A stretch of 53,618 bases of DNA from a virus (Duplodnaviria; Heunggongvirae; Uroviricota; Caudoviricetes): IMG/VR virus record IMGVR_UViG_2563366968_000008; one strand, given 5' to 3'. This document shows positions 9,024 through 45,264 of the stretch, piece after piece; position 1 is the first letter of the stretch; every line of letters starts with the position of its first letter. The notes beneath the pieces are model-generated. The model had not been told where the DNA came from and ran no database searches. It saw only the letters and a list, made by a program, of their open reading frames with translations. The position numbers were made by a program, and so were the translations under genes.

Positions 9024-9671
9024 ATGAAAACAAAATGGTATAACTTAGCAAAGCAGCTCATGCGGGCGCAGGGCATGAGCCAGGATTCGCTCGCGGATCG
9101 TATGGGGATAACTAAAGGCGGCCTGTCACACTGGCTGAACGGTCGCCGAGAGCCAAATCTTGAAGATATTGCGCGGATTATGCGCGAGCTTGGTCGTCGG
9201 CAGTTTACTGTTACACATGATGGCATGGTCATTGATGATTCTGTTTCTAATACACTTCAGGCCGTGCCGCCGCGTGATTTAGGTAGTTACCCGGTTATTG
9301 ACTGGAAGGACACAGTAAACAATATGGATGACGCAAGGCGTTCAGCATTACGACACGTTACGACTAGCGTTATTTGTTCAGATGACAGTTACTGGCTGGT
9401 TGCCAAAGGTGAATCAATGAACGCGCCGCAGGGGTTGAGCATCCCGGCGGGGACGATGATACTTGTGGACCCGCACGCGCCAGCTATTGACGGCAAACTG
9501 GTTATAGCCCAGCTTGAGGAAGGGCAGATACCGACGTTTAAACAGTTGATTATTGATGGAGGTCAAAGGCTTTTACGTTCGCTCAATCCGCTGTATCCGC
9601 CAATCCCTATGAATCCAGAATCAAAAATTATAGGCGTGGTGGTTGATGCGAAGATCGTAAACCTGCCATAA
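9024..9671 (+). CDS. CI/LexA-like repressor (HTH_XRE + S24 peptidase domain)
   Basis: N-terminal HTH (QDSLADRMGITKGGLSHWLNGRR), C-terminal S24 peptidase-like domain with GESM motif. Confidence 0.85.
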   Translation: MKTKWYNLAKQLMRAQGMSQDSLADRMGITKGGLSHWLNGRREPNLEDIARIMRELGRRQFTVTHDGMVIDDSVSNTLQAVPPRDLGSYPVIDWKDTVNNMDDARRSALRHVTTSVICSDDSYWLVAKGESMNAPQGLSIPAGTMILVDPHAPAIDGKLVIAQLEEGQIPTFKQLIIDGGQRLLRSLNPLYPPIPMNPESKIIGVVVDAKIVNLP

Positions 9672-9794: not shown

Positions 9795-9823
9795 TTGACT
9801 CGATGTTTTACGGGGCGTATATT
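9795..9823 (+). promoter_or_regulatory. Sigma70-like promoter (TTGACT, 17 bp spacer, TATATT), candidate rightward early promoter
   Basis: Near-consensus -35/-10 with 17-bp spacing; 13-mer-like motif GTATACAAAATGG immediately upstream. Confidence 0.5.
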
Positions 9824-10077
9824 GCGAGTCAAAGGAAGGGCGCAGGTAACAAAAGCAACTTCCTGGCACTTTAAAAATCAGGCTTAACACCTTGTCAACC
9901 GTGGAGTAACTCCCCGATGGGGGACCGAAAGCGGCACTGATAACAAGGCGCATGGGGTGTTTAAAGCGTTACATCCCCCACGAAACCGCACGCAAGGCGA
10001 CGAGTCAGCTTGCTTGGAGTGAGCAAGGTCACGCCGGGAACGGCGATGATTGCGGGATTAGTTGAAAGATGTTAAGC

Positions 10078-10171: not shown

Positions 10172-10462
10172 ATGAGCGTTACAATTATATATGGTAAATG
10201 TGATAGCAAAATGAATGCCAGGGAACGCAGAAGGATAAAAAGAGAAAACGAAAGAAAATCATCACCTGCAATCAATAAAACAGACAATGTGGATAAAGCT
10301 ATTCGATTTGCAAACGAGGAAAGATGCAAACCAAATAGCATTAAAGAACGTCGCAAAGGATCAGTAAAATGGTATACGGAAAATGAAAGCGGCAGCTACT
10401 ACCACGCAACGCAACCACGCCATTTAGGGGAAAAACCCCTGGATAAAGTCCGCTACCATTAA
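10172..10462 (+). CDS. N-like transcription antiterminator candidate (arginine-rich motif)
   Basis: 96 aa basic protein; NARERRRIKRENERK resembles the arginine-rich RNA-binding motif of lambdoid N proteins; first gene after the promoter/nut-like leader. Confidence 0.4.
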   Translation: MSVTIIYGKCDSKMNARERRRIKRENERKSSPAINKTDNVDKAIRFANEERCKPNSIKERRKGSVKWYTENESGSYYHATQPRHLGEKPLDKVRYH

Positions 10463-13869: not shown

Positions 13870-13968
13870 CCGAGTAATTCCGATCACATAAATATACATT
13901 TTGTATTGTGATTGTATATCCGTTTTGTAAGCCGAAATCAAAAGGTTTACGGTGCGGAGGAAGCAAAA

Positions 13969-17441: not shown

Positions 17442-17587
17442 CGTCATTGTGTGATGTGGATCACATAATGGCGCTTTATTGTTTGTTCGCATGTATCCGT
17501 TTTGTATACTTCAAACAAACAAAATGCTCTTTAAAAATCCGGTAACGCTGAAATGCGTAAAAATCACCTGAAAAAGGAGAGAGCATT

Positions 17588-17764
17588 ATGTCTTTTGAGA
17601 ATTACCAATGGCATGACGACTATGAACGGGAAAGTGTCATGCGTGCAATGTGCAGTGTATGCAGCACGAAGAAGGGAGAATGTAACGAGTGCAACGAATG
17701 CGTAGATCGCTTGCTAAGGGCTGGACACGCCGAAAGGCTGAACGAAACAGAGAATCAAGAATAA
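17588..17764 (+). CDS. NinF-like small Cys-rich protein (58 aa), not in ORF track
   Basis: AAGGAG SD 8 nt upstream; YERESVMRAMCSVCS...CNECNEC pattern resembles lambda NinF. Confidence 0.45.
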   Translation: MSFENYQWHDDYERESVMRAMCSVCSTKKGECNECNECVDRLLRAGHAERLNETENQE

Positions 17765-41975: not shown

Positions 41976-42006
41976 AACCCCGGTGCAATGCCGGGGTTAT
42001 TTTTCG
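41976..42006 (+). terminator. Intrinsic terminator after tape measure gene
   Basis: AACCCCGG-TGCAATG-CCGGGGTT hairpin followed by ATTTTTCG. Confidence 0.55.
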
Positions 42007-42057
42007 TATTTATAAACGACCATTCCGCGCGATATATCCCCTTTCGAATATCTCGAC

Positions 42058-42312
42058 TCACTTATGAGTGCCTTTCACGCCACATAACTTGTTATAGGCA
42101 TGATGCTCAACAATTAACCAAACCTTCAAATCTTCGCTAAACAGCCTCCAATCAAGATTGATATCCATTTTGTATCCGTAACCGTCGCGTAACTTTTTGG
42201 GGTAAACTTCTTTTCTCAGAAAGGCTTTAAGTAATTCCTTACCTTTCTTGATGATCCGGTCCTGTGCGTTTTTCTGTGCTTTCAGATTTCTGTCAATCGC
42301 TACCAGTTTCAT
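42058..42312 (-). CDS. RelE/YafQ/HigB-superfamily toxin-like protein
   Basis: 84 aa; Lys-rich N-terminus and C-terminal DINLDWRLFSEDLKVWLIVEHH...GVKGTHK resembles YafQ/HigB C-termini; GGGGTGAG SD. Confidence 0.4.
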   Translation of the reverse strand: MKLVAIDRNLKAQKNAQDRIIKKGKELLKAFLRKEVYPKKLRDGYGYKMDINLDWRLFSEDLKVWLIVEHHAYNKLCGVKGTHK

Positions 42313-42329
42313 AACTCACCCCATCATCC

Positions 42330-42485
42330 TTAGTTAAGTGCCTTCAGGAAGAAGTCCCGGTATTCATCTTCTTTCGCATTCATCATGAATTGACCGTATT
42401 TGAATGCGTCGTCGAAACCCTTAACGATTGCTATTTCCACTTGTTCGAATGCGTTATTTAGCATTACTACTACATAGCGTTTCAT
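42330..42485 (-). CDS. Small ORF (51 aa) upstream of toxin-like gene, candidate antitoxin
   Basis: ATG with AGGAGG SD at 7 nt; 17-bp gap to toxin-like gene start. Confidence 0.3.
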   Translation of the reverse strand: MKRYVVVMLNNAFEQVEIAIVKGFDDAFKYGQFMMNAKEDEYRDFFLKALN

Positions 42486-42555
42486 TTTGGGCCTCCTTCG
42501 TTGGTACTACTTTCTTCTTGCTTTCTGCATACATCTTGTTGCGTGCTATGTGAAG

Positions 42556-42568
42556 CCATTTTGTAAAC
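42556..42568 (-). repeat. 13-mer GTTTACAAAATGG copy 4 (reverse orientation)
   Basis: CCATTTTGTAAAC on plus strand, followed 5 bp later by TATAAT. Confidence 0.8.
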
Positions 42569-42597
42569 TAGCTATAATCATTGTGACAATGATCTTA

Positions 42598-42620
42598 TTT
42601 TTCGCGTAGAAGCGCGTAAA
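42598..42620 (+). promoter_or_regulatory. 23-bp motif TTTTTCGCGTAGAAGCGCGTAAA upstream of M gene
   Basis: Second copy of the portal-upstream motif (2 mismatches). Confidence 0.4.
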
Positions 42621-42652
42621 GATATATACAAAATGTAACTTGTGGGGGGTTT

Positions 42653-43006
42653 ATGCCGGAAGTGTTCAGATGGACGCCGCAAAGAAGCTACAGCGTGACC
42701 AGGAAGCCAGACGTATCTGTTGTTAAGTTGGGCGATGGTTATGAGCAAAGACAGGTAAAAGGTATCAATCCATTGCTTGATAGCTACACCCTGGTGTTTA
42801 AAGGTAGTAGCGCCGGATGTGGTGATGGTGGAAACGTAGCAATCCAGGCGGAAGCATTCTTGAGGGCGCACGGCGCGGTCGAGGCTTTTTACTGGTCGCC
42901 GTCGATGGATAACGTGCAAAGGCTTTTTGTTTGCCGTAGCTGGAGCATGACTAAAGACGGTCCGCTATACACGCTAAATGCAACATTTGAGCAAGTTATT
43001 AATTAG
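42653..43006 (+). CDS. Minor tail protein M (lambda gpM-like)
   Basis: FRWTPQRSYSVTRKPDVSVVKLGDGYEQRQ and C-terminal FEQVIN resemble lambda M. Confidence 0.8.
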   Translation: MPEVFRWTPQRSYSVTRKPDVSVVKLGDGYEQRQVKGINPLLDSYTLVFKGSSAGCGDGGNVAIQAEAFLRAHGAVEAFYWSPSMDNVQRLFVCRSWSMTKDGPLYTLNATFEQVIN

Positions 43007-43017
43007 GGGGAGGGGAT

Positions 43018-43200
43018 ATGCCTTATTTTTGTGTAGTGGAGCGCACTGGCGCTTTTACATTGTTCGCCGACCATGAAATTAAAGATCTTACTGTCCGGGC
43101 TGATAACGGTGAGACGTGGTATCTTCATGATATGGGTGATGGATATATCGGCTGTACGACTTGGGATGGCAAAGAAGTCGCATTTCTATCCTACGATTAA
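43018..43200 (+). CDS. Hypothetical small protein (60 aa)
   Basis: GGGGGAGGGG SD; followed by terminator. Confidence 0.4.
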   Translation: MPYFCVVERTGAFTLFADHEIKDLTVRADNGETWYLHDMGDGYIGCTTWDGKEVAFLSYD

Positions 43201-43203
43201 AAA

Positions 43204-43230
43204 ACACCCCGCCACGGCGGGGTTATTATT
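43204..43230. terminator. Bidirectional hairpin terminator
   Basis: CCCCGC-CACG-GCGGGG; T-rich on plus, TGTTTTTT on minus. Confidence 0.5.
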
Positions 43231-43437
43231 ATCCCATTTCCATTAACGCTATATTTTCCGCTATCGTTTTCCAGTCCAGATCTACAGCGTGAACACCAAA
43301 TACTATCAATCCCATTGCGATTAGTGTTAAAACTTCGATTTTCACAATCAACCTCACTTAATTAAGAAAGGCATAAACGATGGCAATCGCGCCAGCCATT
43401 ACTAAAACATTTTCGATTACTTCGTTTACTTAATTGA

Positions 43438-43641
43438 TTAAGGTAACTCCACTTCGTTAAATGTAACAAGCACCCCTTGATTTTCTTTATTTATAATTAT
43501 TAAAGAATTAATTGAAGGCAGACATCTTTCCACGCGGTAAACGCCACCAATATCTAAACTGTAATATTCTGTTAATTCTCTATTGTTCCCTTTAGCAAAA
43601 CCCGTAAACCTAACCATTCTTTGACCGTCGTACTTTAACAT
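43438..43641 (-). CDS. Hypothetical protein (67 aa), opposite-strand operon gene 4
   Basis: ATG ORF; operon on minus strand between M and L. Confidence 0.4.
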   Translation of the reverse strand: MLKYDGQRMVRFTGFAKGNNRELTEYYSLDIGGVYRVERCLPSINSLIIINKENQGVLVTFNEVELP

Positions 43642-43649
43642 ATACAGTC

Positions 43650-43898
43650 CTATAAGTTATCACGCAGATAATTAACGCCCTTATCAGTGACGAATGAATG
43701 ATTAACCTGGTTTTCATCCGTCATGATGATGAATAACTTTTCCTGCAAGTATTTCGCTTTCGGGTACAGCGTTAAGCAGACCTGGTACAGTATCCCGCGC
43801 TCAATCAGCAAATCAATGAATTCATGTTCATGATAACCGATAAGGCGGGCGGCCTGTTTCAACGTGTACACATAATCACCGTGATTGCGCCGCGCCAT
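43650..43898 (-). CDS. HTH-like small protein (82 aa), opposite-strand operon gene 3
   Basis: YTLKQAARLIGYHEHEFIDLLIERGIL resembles an HTH. Confidence 0.4.
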   Translation of the reverse strand: MARRNHGDYVYTLKQAARLIGYHEHEFIDLLIERGILYQVCLTLYPKAKYLQEKLFIIMTDENQVNHSFVTDKGVNYLRDNL

Positions 43899-43907
43899 AT
43901 TGCCGCC

Positions 43908-44261
43908 TTATTTATTGAACGCGCCAAGTTTGTCGATACAGAAATCTTTCGCCGCTTTTTCGTATTCGCGTTTTGCTTCTGGATCGTCAGCCGGGAAACC
44001 TTTTGCGTGTATTTCACCAGGGCAAGACTGGTCCATAGAATCTGCATAATAAGCAGTGAAGCTACCATTAATATCTTTCGGGTTCATATCTTCCACCTTA
44101 TCCGGTATTTGTACTGGAGTAATTTTGAATTCTCTGGCGCGACCGAAGAATCGAACGAGTTTTTCTCCTTCCTCGACCGCCATTTCGTAACTGTCATGCA
44201 AACCGTAACCTTCCCAATCATCACTACCAGCCATCCAGACATCAAGACGATACTTTTGCAT
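43908..44261 (-). CDS. Hypothetical acidic protein (117 aa), opposite-strand operon gene 2
   Basis: ATG 44261 with GAGGGT SD; in frame within ORF 43908..44363. Confidence 0.45.
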   Translation of the reverse strand: MQKYRLDVWMAGSDDWEGYGLHDSYEMAVEEGEKLVRFFGRAREFKITPVQIPDKVEDMNPKDINGSFTAYYADSMDQSCPGEIHAKGFPADDPEAKREYEKAAKDFCIDKLGAFNK

Positions 44262-44265
44262 TTTG

Positions 44266-44430
44266 CTAACCCTCATATTTGACAGGTTCGATCTGGTATC
44301 CCAAAAGGCGGTCATCCTCAGCAAGTAAAAGCGCGTCAACCAATGCTTCACCCTCGTCGTCATACAGGGCGATAACCTTTTCCCTACCGTCTGTCATGAA
44401 TACCGTCAACTTCCATAGCTTTTCAGTCAT
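44266..44430 (-). CDS. Hypothetical acidic small protein (54 aa), opposite-strand operon gene 1
   Basis: ATG 44430 with GGAGGTG SD; 4-bp gap to next gene. Confidence 0.35.
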   Translation of the reverse strand: MTEKLWKLTVFMTDGREKVIALYDDEGEALVDALLLAEDDRLLGYQIEPVKYEG

Positions 44431-44559
44431 AACGCACCTCCGCGCCATTTTGTTAACTTCCCCTTCGTTTGAGTAAAATATACATATTGTAAAAACCACG
44501 ATCAATCCATTTTGGTGTGATTTAGCGTGGCGCAGATCACAAAATGACAAGGTGAGAAA

Positions 44560-45264
44560 ATGCGCAATATTCCGAGAGAGATGATTATTGATTCCGTCGA
44601 TGCCGGAGTTGGCGCGGTCATTGACTTATTTGAACTGGACCTTACTCCCCTGGGAGGCGAGGTTATCCGCTTCCATTCCGGCGCGAACGGCTATTACGGC
44701 CAGGTTATCTGGAAGGGAGTAGCTTACAACAGCTACCCGATCGAGGCGACGGGCTTCGAAATGAAAAATGAGGGTGTTTATTCACGGCCTCAAATGGTTG
44801 TAGCCAATATCGGCGGACTCATTACGGGGATGAACAACGATTTTAACGACCTTAGAGGAATGAAGGTTACGCGCCGCCAGGTGGAGGTGAAATATCTTGA
44901 CGCCGTTAACTTCCCTAACGGTAATCCAGACGCAGATCCATCTATTGAGGCTGTATCTTTTTACGTCGTTGAAGCAATGAGCGAAGAAACAGCGGATCAG
45001 GTGCAGTATGAACTGTCAACGCCAATTGATGCAGATAAAGCTGTCATCCCTGGGCGCACCATCCTTGCTGACGTTTGCCAGTGGCAATACAGAGGCGACG
45101 GGTGTATGTACGCTGGCGGACCAGTAGCAAACGATAAAGACGAGCCGACAAGCGATCCTAAAGCCGACAGATGTAGCCACCGTCTGAGCGGTTGTCGTTT
45201 ACGTTTCCCGCGTCCAAATCCGTTACCAATTTCCTGTTTCCCCGGTTCAAGTAAGGTGGGCTAA
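44560..45264 (+). CDS. Minor tail protein L (lambda gpL-like)
   Basis: RRQVEVKYLDAVNFPNGN...CQWQYRGDGC...CSHRLSGCRLRF resembles lambda L. Confidence 0.85.
   Translation: MRNIPREMIIDSVDAGVGAVIDLFELDLTPLGGEVIRFHSGANGYYGQVIWKGVAYNSYPIEATGFEMKNEGVYSRPQMVVANIGGLITGMNNDFNDLRGMKVTRRQVEVKYLDAVNFPNGNPDADPSIEAVSFYVVEAMSEETADQVQYELSTPIDADKAVIPGRTILADVCQWQYRGDGCMYAGGPVANDKDEPTSDPKADRCSHRLSGCRLRFPRPNPLPISCFPGSSKVG

What the first reader, a model, noticed from the sequence alone, without database searches (positions are those of the whole stretch)
43229..44430. Four-gene opposite-strand operon inserted between the M and L tail genes
Lambda has M and L adjacent; here about 1.35 kb carrying four reverse-strand genes (54, 117, 82 and 67 aa, each with its own SD) and a bidirectional terminator separates them. 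None has an obvious known domain apart from an HTH-like segment in the 82-aa protein, making this an uncharacterised cargo island and a candidate compact defence or anti-defence system.
Basis: partly seen in the sequence, partly recalled or inferred. Interest (0 to 1): 0.6.

Follow-up and report, generated by a model that had tools for sequence, protein, structure and literature searches.

The report
Conserved antisense operon between tail genes
Between two tail genes of this mEp021-type (mEpimmI) coliphage sits a backward-facing, self-contained operon of small proteins that every known relative keeps; it looks like a phage "moron" cassette for regulation or phage-host conflict, but its function is still unknown.

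Summary
Between tail genes M and L there is a minus-strand operon with the four stated genes (54, 117, 82 and 67 aa). It has its own conserved sigma-70-type promoter and ends at a bidirectional terminator.

The window is an mEp021/mEpimmI-type coliphage. The 54-117-82 core is present in all 47 related viral contigs or phages and all 35 E. coli prophages with this tail module. It is under purifying selection. It is therefore fixed in the lineage, not strain-specific cargo.

More distant relatives show that the M-L junction is a moron slot. ES18 carries an unrelated gene there, and an Erwinia phage has M and L overlapping.

The 82-aa protein is a stand-alone KilAC/ANT domain and is highly conserved. 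The 54-aa protein and the N-half of the 117-aa protein share one small fold and evolve fast. The C-half of the 117-aa protein is a conserved Cys/His module.

The promoter cassette, including a CRP-like dyad, is shared with the superinfection-exclusion lipoprotein gene.

No defence HMM, solved structure or characterised family matches. The best reading is a moron-type "noncontiguous operon" for regulation or conflict. The specific function is unproven.

The parts
44526..44541 (-). Dyad box TGTGAT-CTGC-GCCACG (TGTGA-N6-TCAC(G) in most relatives). It is a CRP-type consensus centred about 63.5 bp upstream of the predicted start (62.5 in relatives with a 1-nt shorter spacer).
   Evidence: The half-sites are invariant or near-invariant in 33 distinct intergenic sequences while the spacer varies. 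A near-identical box (CCATTTTGTGATCTG) lies upstream of the post-J lipoprotein gene in the window and in mEp021. Which protein binds it was not tested.
44477..44505 (-). Sigma-70-type promoter of the operon: -35 TTGATC (44505-44500), 17-nt spacer, -10 TATATT (44482-44477). Predicted start near 44470.
   Evidence: 9/12 match. TTGAT and the whole TACAATATGTATATT block are invariant across relatives. Activity not tested.
44474..44491 (.). 18-bp near-palindrome TACAATATGTATATTTTA overlapping the -10. It is TACAATATGTATATTGTA (16/18 symmetric) in about half of the relatives. Candidate operator.
   Evidence: the only such site in the window. Its core TACAWWWTGTATWT occurs 10 times against 0.5 expected. 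The exact copies sit upstream of all three antisense units of the tail region.
44444..44458 (-). Invariant 5'-leader motif AGTTAACAAAATGGC, just upstream of the SD of the first gene. It contains an upstream in-frame ATG (44448).
   Evidence: The same 15-mer lies upstream of the other antisense island (42555-42569). Meaning unknown.
44266..44430 (-). Gene 1: 54-aa acidic protein (pI 4.2) with a beta-beta-alpha-beta fold. It is a paralogue of the N-domain of gene 2. RefSeq calls it 'transporter', which nothing supports.
   Evidence: phrog_29559; AF2 pLDDT 84.6; E3-12, E17-23, H26-37, E42-52; hhalign against the p117 N-domain: probability 79%, E 1.5e-5. dN/dS 0.25.
43908..44261 (-). Gene 2: 117-aa acidic protein (pI 4.7). 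Residues 1-52 form a fast-evolving beta-beta-alpha-beta domain. Residues 59-117 form a conserved module with invariant C80 and C108 and near-invariant H85 (DSMDQxCPGEIHxKGFPxDDP...DFC). There is an SD-like AAGGTGGA before Met59 (about 44092-44099).
   Evidence: AF2: N-domain pLDDT >90, C-half low; exhaustive HMMER: only 15 representatives. Stand-alone C-modules exist (L048; P0089 and P0090). phrog_38567.
43650..43898 (-). Gene 3: 82-aa stand-alone KilAC/ANT domain protein, a predicted DNA binder. It is the most conserved gene of the island (90-100% identity).
   Evidence: searches (PF03374, 29.9 bits against a 25.3 cutoff, profile positions 23-105 of 108; phrog_5689), (pN 0.03). Outside the group it matches only the C-terminal domain of larger Ant/Rha proteins at 30-38%.
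43438..43641 (-). Gene 4: 67-aa accessory ORFan, very A+T-rich (GC 0.34). Present in only 11 of 49 sources examined.
   Evidence: only 9 close homologues in 5.8 billion proteins; no phage or PDB match. Weak phrog_14327 hit.
43358..43437 (-). Spacer holding the remnant of a 23-codon hydrophobic micro-ORF (M-D-E/K-VIENVLVVAGAIAIVYAFLN in relatives). Its start codon is lost in the window.
   Evidence: intact in several of the 12 sources that carry it; in the window and L004 it is preceded by a stop and GTA.
43229..43345 (-). GTG start with GAGG 6 nt upstream.
   Evidence: 33 of 49 sources; annotated as mEp013 gp96. A homologue follows the stand-alone C-module in L048.
43206..43223 (.). Bidirectional intrinsic terminator. 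It ends the antisense operon efficiently (UGUUUUUU tail). It looks weaker for plus-strand late transcription (UUAUUAUUAU tail).
   Evidence: Annotated in mEp021 as TERM_11/12.
43018..43200 (+). 60-aa acidic plus-strand gene between M and the terminator. It belongs to the late-strand unit. ES18 has an unrelated 'possible moron' gene in the same position.
   Evidence: (phrog_3249).
42653..43006 (+). Tail gene M (left border).
   Evidence: PF05939, E 2.6e-28.
44560..45264 (+). Tail gene L (right border).
   Evidence: PF05100, E 1.8e-71.

Best explanation
The locus is a lineage-fixed, moron-type antisense operon embedded in the tail-gene part of the late operon of an mEp021/mEpimmI-type coliphage. 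This layout is called a 'noncontiguous operon'.

Shown from sequence and comparison:
- Five co-oriented genes are closely spaced, with gaps of 4-9 nt except about 90 nt before the last.
- A conserved sigma-70-type promoter faces away from L.
- A terminator works best for the antisense strand.
- The 54-117-82 core is universally retained and under purifying selection. Accessory genes are swapped in and out behind it.

Inferred:
- Host RNA polymerase transcribes the operon independently of the late promoter, in the prophage and/or right after DNA entry.
- A dyad of CRP consensus type upstream may activate it.
- The 18-bp palindrome over the -10 is an operator, most simply for the operon's own KilAC DNA-binding protein (Aca-like autorepression).
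- Antiterminated late transcription reading through from M collides with and silences the operon late in infection, as shown for taiEcA in phi80.

The effectors would be the two paralogous small acidic proteins (54 aa and 117 aa). Their shared N-domain exists as deeply diverged alleles that recombine freely, as expected for binders of a variable partner. So I place the function in phage-host or phage-phage conflict or regulation (anti-defence, exclusion or antirepression), not in tail assembly. The exact target is unknown.
For: Architecture.

Retention: 47/47 related loci that span the region, 7/7 isolated phages and 35/35 E. coli genomes with this L+K module.

Selection: dN/dS is 0.12-0.25, against 0.04-0.09 for M, L and K.

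Divergence and shuffling:
- Mean amino-acid distance is 0.40 for the p117 N-domain and 0.26 for p54, against 0.05 for L and 0.05 for p82.
- Distances of p117N, p117C and p82 are essentially uncorrelated with each other and with the flanking genes (r <= 0.32); p54 tracks the adjacent L and K moderately (r about 0.55).

Proteins:
- KilAC/ANT domain in p82.
- Same fold in p54 and the p117 N-domain.
- Acidic pI.

Moron slot: ES18 has unrelated 'possible moron' genes at the H-M, post-M and M-L positions. The Erwinia phage has M and L overlapping.

Composition: GC is 0.34-0.47 in the island against 0.49-0.51 in the flanking tail genes.

Regulation:
- The dyad half-sites are conserved while the spacer varies.
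- The same dyad box and the same -10 block precede the Lpp-type lipoprotein gene after J, in the window and in mEp021.
- In mEp021, that gene's product (Lpp021) excludes mEp021 and mEp515 (PMC11893012 section 3.7).
- The dyad sits about 63.5 bp upstream where a -35 exists, and about 40.5 bp upstream where it does not. This is the geometry of class I and class II CRP promoters (established knowledge).

Precedent for silencing: phi80 taiEcA is antisense in the Q-dependent late operon, is made in the lysogen, and falls when Q is expressed (PMC11364771 section 13).

Use outside lysogeny: a stand-alone C-module followed by the TM peptide occurs in a contig of at least 121 kb from a virulent-type phage.
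Against: - No transcription data exist, so the promoter, the CRP site, the operator and the late read-through are all predictions.
- The dyad in the window has one mismatch (CCACG). Such 15-mers with one mismatch are not rare (24 in the window).
- Its distance from the predicted start (62.5-63.5 bp) is 1-2 bp off the canonical 61.5.
- The motif family around CATTTTGT also occurs at the immunity-region promoters. A phage regulator such as the CI-like repressor, rather than CRP or p82, may control the island. It could then be repressed in lysogens.
- No defence HMM, anti-defence relative or solved structure matches any protein.
- Universal retention is unusual for morons and could instead mean a role in the phage's own life cycle.
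- That KilAC binds DNA is itself a prediction from the literature, cited from memory.
Confidence: 0.55

Rival explanations
1. Secondary-immunity or antirepressor module, like immI of P22, which also lies among late genes. One of the products (the KilAC protein, or the acidic 54/117-aa proteins) binds and inactivates CI-type repressors of this or of co-resident prophages. The operon is kept off by an operator-bound repressor and is turned on during induction or superinfection.
For: - p82 is a KilAC/ANT domain, the family named after phage antirepressors. GenBank calls mEp021 gp71 'putative antirepressor'.
- There is an operator-like palindrome over the -10.
- Motifs are shared with the immunity-region promoters.
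- The conserved location among late genes recalls P22 immI (my own knowledge).
- Retention in all members fits a life-cycle function.
Against: - p82 lacks the N-terminal domain present in all larger Ant/Rha relatives found.
- No Arc/Mnt-type RHH repressor is present. p54 is predicted beta-beta-alpha-beta, not RHH.
- The group's repressor has a lambda-CI-like cleavable architecture (ORF 9024-9671; PMC11893012), so an antirepressor is not required for induction.
- A stand-alone C-module occurs in a virulent-type phage.
- No LexA box is seen in the promoter (read by eye).
Confidence: 0.17
2. Prophage-expressed defence or superinfection-exclusion cassette, analogous to Tai or to HK97 gp15. The proteins, including the membrane peptide, block incoming phages. 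The phage avoids self-harm because late transcription silences the operon. The plus-strand 60-aa gene after M might act as a late-expressed antidote.
For: - It has the same antisense-in-late-operon layout as phi80 taiEcA/atiEcA.
- Its promoter cassette is shared with the experimentally active Lpp exclusion gene.
- There are small membrane peptides at the operon end.
- The effector domains have diverged alleles.
- A ParE-like toxin pair sits in the neighbouring slot, so the region collects such genes.
Against: - No PADLOC match.
- None of the proteins resembles a known effector such as a nuclease, NTPase or pore former. The largest is 117 aa.
- The membrane peptide and the 67-aa gene are optional, while the invariant core is cytoplasmic and acidic.
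- A virulent-type phage carries the C-module. That fits counter-defence or takeover at least as well as defence.
Confidence: 0.15
3. Cis-acting or assembly-related role. The antisense unit exists mainly to modulate tail-tip gene dosage by transcriptional interference or antisense RNA between M and L, or its small proteins are non-structural tail assembly helpers.
For: - The position inside the tail module is fixed and universally retained.
- A second antisense unit sits between the tape-measure gene and M, so M is bracketed by convergent units.
Against: - All ORFs are under purifying selection at the protein level, so the proteins matter.
- There is no homology to tail chaperones or tail proteins.
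- The closest outgroups assemble the same tail with unrelated genes or none at this junction.
- The C-module occurs in an unrelated large phage.
Confidence: 0.06
4. Toxin-antitoxin or addiction module. One small protein or the membrane peptide is toxic, and a neighbour neutralises it.
For: - The genes are small and tightly spaced with a DNA-binding member.
- A hydrophobic peptide lies next to a terminator.
- The neighbouring slot holds a ParE-like pair.
Against: - No toxin or antitoxin domain is found in any island protein.
- There is no covariation between adjacent genes (r <= 0.29).
- The hydrophobic peptides are optional.
- No Rfam antisense RNA family matches.
Confidence: 0.05

Closest known systems
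mEp021 gp74-gp73-(gp72)-gp71 and the equivalent genes of mEp010/013/044/515/554 and MagusPhagus (mEpimmI phage group; Negrete-Mendez et al. 2025, PMC11893012)
   Same: Orthologous locus. It has the same position between M(+60-aa gene) and L, the same strand, and the same promoter region and terminator. p82 is 93-100% identical, p117 about 68% and p54 about 70-73%. The RBSs and terminators are already annotated in MH706966.
   Different: The window has its own allele combination, closest to IMG/VR contigs L005 and L006 (p54 100%, p117 97%). It also carries the 67-aa gene, which none of the sequenced mEp phages has, and it lacks the gp72-type 77-aa gene. None of these genes has been studied experimentally.
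Morons of lambdoid-type tail modules, specifically ES18 gp22, gp24 and gp25 ('possible moron; function unknown', NC_006949)
   Same: The tail module is the same (L 71% and M 68% identical). The slots are the same: a minus-strand gene between the tape-measure gene and M, a plus-strand extra gene after M, a terminator, then a minus-strand gene before L.
   Different: ES18 has a single unrelated 95-aa gene at the M-L slot. Here there are five genes, three of them fixed in the whole lineage. There is no sequence similarity.
Noncontiguous operon taiEcA/atiEcA of phage phi80 (He et al. 2024, PMC11364771)
   Same: An antisense, prophage-expressed gene interrupts the antiterminator-dependent late operon, and late read-through lowers its expression. 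The layout of the present island is the same in silico.
   Different: TaiEcA is a 26-kDa protein located upstream of the packaging genes. No homology was tested (no sequence at hand), and the sizes do not fit. Expression and read-through here are untested.
Anti-CRISPR/anti-defence operons with an Aca regulator (acr-aca loci), cited from my own knowledge
   Same: Small, acidic, fast-diverging proteins lie upstream of a highly conserved small DNA-binding protein. The operon sits inside a structural-gene cluster with its own strong promoter, overlapped by an inverted repeat.
   Different: The regulator is a KilAC domain, not one of the HTH Aca families as far as I recall. The upstream genes are allelic variants of one family rather than unrelated families. 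No anti-defence activity or homology is known.
P22 immI region (mnt-arc-ant), cited from my own knowledge, and the Pfam PF03374 ANT/KilAC family
   Same: A regulatory module carrying an ANT-family domain is embedded among late genes, with its own promoters and operators. p82 passes the PF03374 threshold.
   Different: p82 is the KilAC domain alone (82 aa, against about 300 aa for Ant). No Arc- or Mnt-like RHH proteins are present. Antirepressor activity is unknown.

Membership tests
Moron (extra transcription unit between genes that are adjacent in related phages) | The flanking genes are adjacent in related phages. | tested here: met
   In Erwinia phage vB_EhrS_49, M and L overlap by 4 nt and L is 69% identical. 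Lambda M and L are adjacent (textbook knowledge).
Moron | Own promoter and own terminator. | tested here: met
   Met in silico only. TTGATC-17-TATATT is invariant in 33 distinct relatives. There is a hairpin plus U-tract at 43206-43223. Activity was not measured.
Moron | Base composition differs from the neighbours. | tested here: met
   GC is 0.34 (p67), 0.38 (p38) and 0.44-0.47 (core), against 0.49-0.51 for H, M, L and K. The core genes are close to the genome mean of 0.459, so the contrast is clear only for the accessory genes.
Moron | Expressed from the repressed prophage. | not testable with these tools
   No transcriptome was available.
Moron | Variable presence among close relatives (accessory gene). 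| tested here: not met
   The core is present in 47/47 loci and 35/35 E. coli genomes. Only p67 (11/49), the TM peptide (33/49), the gp72-type gene and an HNH insert vary.
Noncontiguous operon | Gene(s) transcribed in the opposite direction lie inside an operon. | tested here: met
   Gene order and strands.
Noncontiguous operon | The operon transcript reads through the antisense gene(s), and expression is mutually dependent. | not testable with these tools
   The only hint is that the plus-strand side of the terminator has a poor U-tract.
KilAC/ANT domain family (PF03374) | Score above the Pfam gathering threshold over most of the model. | tested here: met
   29.9 bits against 25.3, profile positions 23-105 of 108.
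Phage antirepressor (Ant/Rha-type proteins) | An N-terminal effector or regulatory domain preceding KilAC. | tested here: not met
   p82 is 82 aa and consists of KilAC only. All non-group matches align to the C-terminus of larger proteins.
Phage antirepressor | Binds and inactivates a phage repressor. | not testable with these tools
   Needs an experiment.
Known anti-phage defence systems (PADLOC-DB 2.0) | HMM match of at least one component. | tested here: not met
   No family at E <= 1 for any of the island proteins.
Type II toxin-antitoxin pair | A recognisable toxin or antitoxin domain, and cognate covariation. | tested here: not met
   No domain found. Distances of adjacent genes are uncorrelated (r <= 0.29). 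The neighbouring H-M island does have a ParE-like toxin.
acr-aca type anti-defence operon | Variable small proteins upstream of a conserved DNA-binding gene, with an inverted repeat at the promoter. | tested here: met
   The pattern is met.
acr-aca type anti-defence operon | Homology to a known Acr or Aca family, or inhibition of a defence system. | not tested
   No Acr/Aca library was available. PHROGs and Pfam give only 'unknown function'.
CRP-dependent promoter | TGTGA-N6-TCACA site centred near -61.5 (class I) or -41.5 (class II). | tested here: inconclusive
   Island: 9/10 core positions in most relatives and 8/10 in the window, centre about -62.5/-63.5. Lpp gene: centre about -40.5. The transcription starts are predicted, not mapped.

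The most novel reading that the evidence does not exclude
The 54-aa and 117-aa proteins (a small beta-beta-alpha-beta domain, plus a Cys/His C-module that also circulates alone in a large virulent-type coliphage) are a new family of phage effectors. They would neutralise a host immune system or a competitor's regulator. A KilAC protein would keep them in check by acting as a new kind of Aca-like autorepressor. The whole unit would be wired to host cAMP-CRP together with the Lpp exclusion gene and switched off by late read-through. That would make it a physiologically tuned 'conflict regulon' built into the tail operon of a widespread gut coliphage family.
Probability: 0.2. Interest if true: 0.65.

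Novelty: new member of a known kind. Interest (0 to 1): 0.4.

Why it matters
mEpimmI phages are reported to be as common as lambdoid phages in human-gut E. coli (PMC11893012). Every one of them keeps this backward operon inside its tail genes, so it is probably doing something important.

If the small acidic proteins are counter-defence or exclusion effectors, they would add a new protein family. They would also add the first KilAC-type regulator to the acr-aca paradigm.

If the shared CRP-type promoter cassette is real, it would show prophage accessory functions (this island and the Lpp exclusion gene) being tuned to host carbon status.

It is also a clean second candidate for the 'noncontiguous operon' logic described in phi80.

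If it turns out to be a routine moron of unknown function, little changes.

Tried and rejected
Homology searches that led nowhere:
- Pfam, PHROGs, NCBIfam and PADLOC scans of all island proteins. Only KilAC (p82) and unnamed PHROGs came up.
- PDB sequence searches gave nothing. The p54 hits to designed armadillo repeats have no stretch that passes on its own, so I treat them as chance matches to repeat proteins.
- The exhaustive HMMER search with the p117 profile found only 15 representatives. All are the same family or fragments of it.
- The homologue searches for p67 and p54 returned 9 and 19 close relatives only.

Structure searches that led nowhere:
- Foldseek of the p117 model against BFVD gave many 53-65-aa uncharacterised phage proteins, some labelled DUF7336, at E about 3e-3. 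None has a known function.
- Foldseek of the p54 model against PDB gave nothing below E 0.5. The weak hits to the phi29/VMY22 p56 UDG inhibitor (TM about 0.4) are not significant, and I do not use them.
- afdb50 was unavailable.

Ideas tested and rejected:
- The 51-aa partner of the ParE-like gene is related to p54 or p117N: rejected by hhalign (probability 0.2%).
- The ES18 morons are homologous to the island genes: rejected.
- The dyad is the CI operator: not supported. The repeats I saw by eye around the cI gene (TTGCAAG-type) are different. It cannot be excluded.
- A LexA box at the promoter: none by eye.
- Plus-strand promoters for M and L at the GCCATTTTGTWAACT motifs: no credible -35, left unresolved.

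Other:
- Rfam: no family.
- mEpimmI paper: no text on gp71-74 and no supplement hits.
Full report
**1. What is there**

The window is a phage of the mEp021/mEpimmI group. The region 42600-44600 matches mEp021, mEp013, mEp515, mEp554, mEp010, mEp044 and MagusPhagus at 82-86% nucleotide identity. It matches 35 E. coli prophages, the best at 93%.

Tail gene M (42653-43006; PF05939) and tail gene L (44560-45264; PF05100) are separated by 1,553 bp. After M come:
- a plus-strand 60-aa gene (43018-43200, phrog_3249);
- a G+C-rich hairpin at 43206-43223 that scores as a terminator on both strands;
- minus-strand genes of 38 aa (43229-43345, GTG start), 67 aa (43438-43641), 82 aa (43650-43898), 117 aa (43908-44261) and 54 aa (44266-44430).

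Each gene has an SD-like sequence. The gaps are 4-9 nt, except about 90 nt before the last gene.

The 38-aa membrane peptide and the plus-strand 60-aa gene were missed.

The hairpin is followed by UGUUUUUU on the minus strand but by UUAUUAUUAU on the plus strand. It should stop the antisense operon well and the late transcript poorly.

**2. The genes are real and the core is fixed in the lineage**

A pattern search with the 117-aa family brought in 44 IMG/VR loci. Together with four annotated records, 47 loci span the region. All 47 carry 54 aa - 117 aa - 82 aa in this order between L and the 60-aa gene/M.

In complete E. coli genomes, 35 carry this L+K module and 35 carry the island.

NG86 estimates over 43 loci give dN/dS of 0.25 (p54), 0.25 (p117 residues 1-56), 0.15 (p117 residues 59-117) and 0.12 (p82). 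The values for K, L and M are 0.09, 0.04 and 0.07.

So all are protein-coding genes under purifying selection, and the core is not dispensable cargo.

What varies is everything around the core:
- a 77-93-aa gene (mEp021 gp72 type) or an HNH/AP2 homing endonuclease between p117 and p82;
- the 67-aa gene, present in 11 of the 49 sources examined (48 related loci plus the window);
- a 23-codon hydrophobic micro-ORF in 12 sources, whose start is lost in the window;
- the TM peptide, in 33 sources.

The 67-aa gene and the peptide are markedly A+T-rich (GC 0.34 and 0.38). The flanking tail genes have GC 0.49-0.51.

**3. On a deeper time scale it is an insertion into a moron slot**

The nearest tail modules outside the group are ES18-like Salmonella phages (L 70-71% identical) and Erwinia phages (66-69%).

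ES18 has:
- a minus-strand gene between the tape-measure gene and M;
- a plus-strand extra gene after M;
- a terminator;
- a minus-strand gene before L.

All three genes are annotated 'possible moron; function unknown'. None resembles the island proteins.

In Erwinia phage vB_EhrS_49, M and L overlap.

The window also has a second antisense unit between the tape-measure gene and M. It holds a ParE-like toxin (PF24732, E 9e-12) and a 51-aa partner, and it ends at another bidirectional terminator. A third minus-strand unit lies after J.

**4. The proteins**

p82:
- It is a stand-alone KilAC/ANT domain (PF03374, above threshold, almost the full model).
- It is the most conserved protein of the locus, at 90-100% identity.
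- Outside the group it aligns only to the C-terminal domain of larger Ant/Rha-type proteins, at 30-38%.

p117 has two parts:
- Residues 1-52 are predicted with pLDDT >90 as beta-beta-alpha-beta. They are extremely variable, with mean amino-acid distance 0.40 and many pairs saturated at synonymous sites.
- Residues 59-117 are highly conserved (DSMDQxCPGEIHxKGFPxDDP...EYEKAAKDFC, with invariant C80 and C108 and near-invariant H85). AlphaFold2 does not fold this part confidently.

Met59 is nearly invariant and is preceded by AAGGTGGA. The C-module also exists as a separate 56-60-aa protein. So p117 is a fusion of two modules and may also be read from an internal start.

p54 has the same predicted topology as the p117 N-domain. 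It aligns to that domain end to end in a profile-profile comparison (probability 79%, E 1.5e-5). I take the two as paralogues.

Both proteins are acidic, with pI 4.2 and 4.7.

Pairwise distances of p117N, p117C and p82 are uncorrelated with each other and with the flanking genes (r <= 0.32); only p54 tracks the adjacent L and K moderately (r about 0.55). Alleles are therefore shuffled by recombination, and there is no cognate-pair covariation.

The families are tiny. An exhaustive HMMER scan of 1.84 billion representatives found 15 proteins. All named hits are from E. coli or its phages.

No defence HMM, NCBIfam model, PDB sequence or significant structural neighbour was found. BFVD shows only that this small fold is common among uncharacterised 53-65-aa phage proteins.

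One context outside the group is informative. In a contig of at least 121 kb, whose neighbouring genes resemble those of rV5-like virulent phages, the stand-alone C-module is followed directly by a homologue of the TM peptide. At least these two parts are therefore useful outside lysogeny.

**5. Regulation (inferred from conservation)**

The 129-bp L-p54 spacer is highly conserved. On the island strand it contains three elements:

(a) A dyad, TGTGAT-N4-GTCACG.
- Its half-sites are invariant or nearly so, while the spacer varies.
- It matches the CRP consensus core TGTGA-N6-TCACA at 9/10 positions in most relatives and 8/10 in the window.

(b) A promoter, -35 TTGATC, 17 nt, -10 TATATT.

(c) An 18-bp near-palindrome over the -10, TACAATATGTATATTGTA.
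- It is 16/18 symmetric in half of the relatives.
- It is the only such site in the window.

An invariant leader motif, AGTTAACAAAATGGC, follows.

The same dyad box (CCATTTTGTGATCT...) and the same -10 block (TACAnAATGTAT) precede the minus-strand lipoprotein gene downstream of J. This holds both in the window and in mEp021 gp81, but there the two blocks lie 23 bp closer together and there is no -35.

With the predicted starts, the dyad is centred near -63 at the island and near -40.5 at the lipoprotein gene. This is roughly the class I and class II geometry of CRP-dependent promoters (established knowledge). The starts are not mapped, and the island value is 1-2 bp off.

In mEp021 and mEp010, the lipoproteins encoded at this position exclude superinfecting phages of this group when expressed from a plasmid (PMC11893012 section 3.7). 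So the island appears to be co-regulated with a proven exclusion function.

The -10 block motif TACAWWWTGTATWT occurs 10 times against 0.5 expected. Three of its four exact copies precede the three antisense units of the tail region.

A caveat: the octamer CATTTTGT is enriched five-fold (20 against 3.9). It also marks the promoters on both sides of the CI-like repressor gene. A phage-encoded regulator may therefore be involved, and I cannot say whether the island is on or off in a lysogen.

**6. Most likely mechanism**

I read the locus as a moron-type unit that has become fixed.
- Host RNA polymerase starts at about 44470, possibly helped by cAMP-CRP.
- It transcribes the five genes and stops at 43206-43223.
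- The KilAC protein most simply acts as the operon's own DNA-binding regulator at the palindrome. This resembles Aca proteins in anti-defence operons (from memory).
- The two paralogous acidic proteins are the effectors. Their variable N-domain would bind a variable partner.
- During late development, antiterminated transcription coming from M reads through the weak plus-strand side of the terminator and across the operon. This silences it by collision or antisense pairing.

The silencing step follows the 'noncontiguous operon' logic shown for taiEcA in phi80. There the antisense defence protein is made in the lysogen and drops when Q is expressed (PMC11364771).

Steps shown here:
- gene structure;
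- conservation;
- selection;
- domain content;
- shared promoter cassette;
- slot homology with ES18.

Steps inferred:
- promoter activity;
- CRP and p82 binding;
- read-through silencing;
- the conflict function.

The rivals cannot be excluded without experiments. They are an antirepressor or secondary-immunity module, prophage defence or exclusion with the 60-aa plus-strand gene as antidote, dosage control of tail-tip genes, and toxin-antitoxin. Their pros and cons are listed in the Rival explanations section.

**7. Comparison with the known, and verdict**

- The locus is orthologous to mEp021 gp71-gp74, which are already annotated but unstudied. The group's description lists the KilAC-like protein among the gene products found in all genomes by manual analysis.
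- In kind, it is a moron or noncontiguous-operon cassette in a recognised moron slot. It differs in being multi-gene and universally retained.
- It is not a member of any known defence, TA or antirepressor family by the tests I could run. p82 is a member of the KilAC domain family only.
- The 'cargo island' reading is only partly right.
- 'Defence or anti-defence' remains an untested but reasonable guess.
- Interest is moderate. The locus is a well-defined, experimentally tractable unknown in a common gut phage family. Nothing in the evidence shows a categorically new mechanism.

Noticed in passing
window 41976-42652: There is a second antisense island between the tape-measure gene and M. It holds an 84-aa ParE-like toxin (42058-42312, PF24732, E 9e-12) preceded by a 51-aa protein (42330-42485, phrog_29810), and it ends at a bidirectional terminator (41976-41998). 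It is conserved in nearly all related loci (ParE-like gene in 47 of 48, partner in 46). The ParE-like gene is variable (67-100%) and the partner is conserved. This is a likely toxin-antitoxin pair. A 25-codon upstream ORF (about 42487-42564) ends in ATGA, overlapping the start of the 51-aa gene (read by eye).
   Followed up: partly
window 43018-43200 (+): A 60-aa acidic plus-strand gene (phrog_3249) lies between M and the terminator. It occurs in three allele groups (about 95-100%, 70% and 55-57% identity). ES18 has an unrelated DUF1327 'possible moron' gene in the same place. It could be a late-expressed partner of the antisense operon.
   Followed up: partly
window 50964-51516 (-); L051 6777-7095 (mEp021 gp81): A third antisense unit lies after J. 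It is a minus-strand ORF with a signal peptide and lipobox-like start (MKKLIVAC..., ATG at 51353). It is preceded by the same dyad box (51490-51505, TGTGATCTGTGTTACA) and -10 block (51465-51478) as the M-L island, but they are 23 bp closer together. A hairpin plus T-run at about 51070-51096 lies inside the ORF as called, so the true 3' end is unclear.
   Followed up: partly
window-wide, e.g. 5168, 8937, 9780, 17428, 17496, 42555, 44444: The motif (G/T)CCATTTTGT(A/T)(A/T)AC(T) occurs 16 times with up to 3 mismatches against 4.9 expected. Its core CATTTTGT occurs 20 times against 3.9. The copies sit at the promoters flanking the CI-like repressor gene (9024-9671), near 17.4-17.5 kb and at all three antisense tail-region units. 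This could be a binding site for an unidentified regulator or a shared promoter element. It is unexplained.
   Followed up: partly
window 17450-17465 and 17525-17600: There is a perfect CRP-core palindrome TGTGATGTGGATCACA, flanked by direct repeats ACA(A/T)AATGGCG. Downstream lie a boxA-like TGCTCTTTAAAAA and a lambda boxB-like CCTGAAAAAGG hairpin. This is probably one of the nut sites of this Nus-dependent phage group (read by eye).
   Followed up: no
window 13892-13908: An exact copy of the -10-block motif TACAAAATGTATAT (palindromic here) lies in a short gap between two plus-strand genes. There may be another antisense promoter or regulatory site in the early region.
   Followed up: no
L048 3977-4307 (IMGVR_UViG_3300045988_157310, 121 kb): A stand-alone 60-aa version of the p117 C-module is followed directly by a homologue of the 38/45-aa membrane peptide. 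The contig's neighbouring genes resemble those of rV5-like virulent coliphages (60% identity). This suggests the two are a functional pair that moves between temperate and virulent phages.
   Followed up: partly
L012 4357-4842 (IMGVR_UViG_3300029816_000005): An HNH_3 endonuclease (PF13392, E 1.6e-15), apparently split from a following AP2-like ORF, is inserted between the 117-aa and 82-aa genes in one relative. mEp021 has another HNH gene between tail genes I and J (gp78).
   Followed up: partly
window 44448 and relatives: The invariant leader ATG (in AACAAAATGGCG) is in frame with the 54-aa gene in most relatives and would add MARRC(V/E). In the divergent allele group it opens a 7-codon upstream ORF that ends in ATGA, overlapping the start codon. 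This hints at translational coupling or leader control.
   Followed up: no
window 10172-10462 (+): A 96-aa protein with an arginine-rich motif (NARERRRIKRENERK) lies downstream of a strong promoter (TTGACT-17-TATATT at 9796-9824) and a long structured leader. This is probably the N-like antiterminator (Gp17 of mEp021).
   Followed up: no
RefSeq annotation of L004 (WP_085654716.1) and P0070-P0077: Homologues of the 54-aa protein are named 'transporter' in NCBI records. Nothing in sequence, size or predicted fold supports this. It is a likely propagated misannotation.
   Followed up: yes
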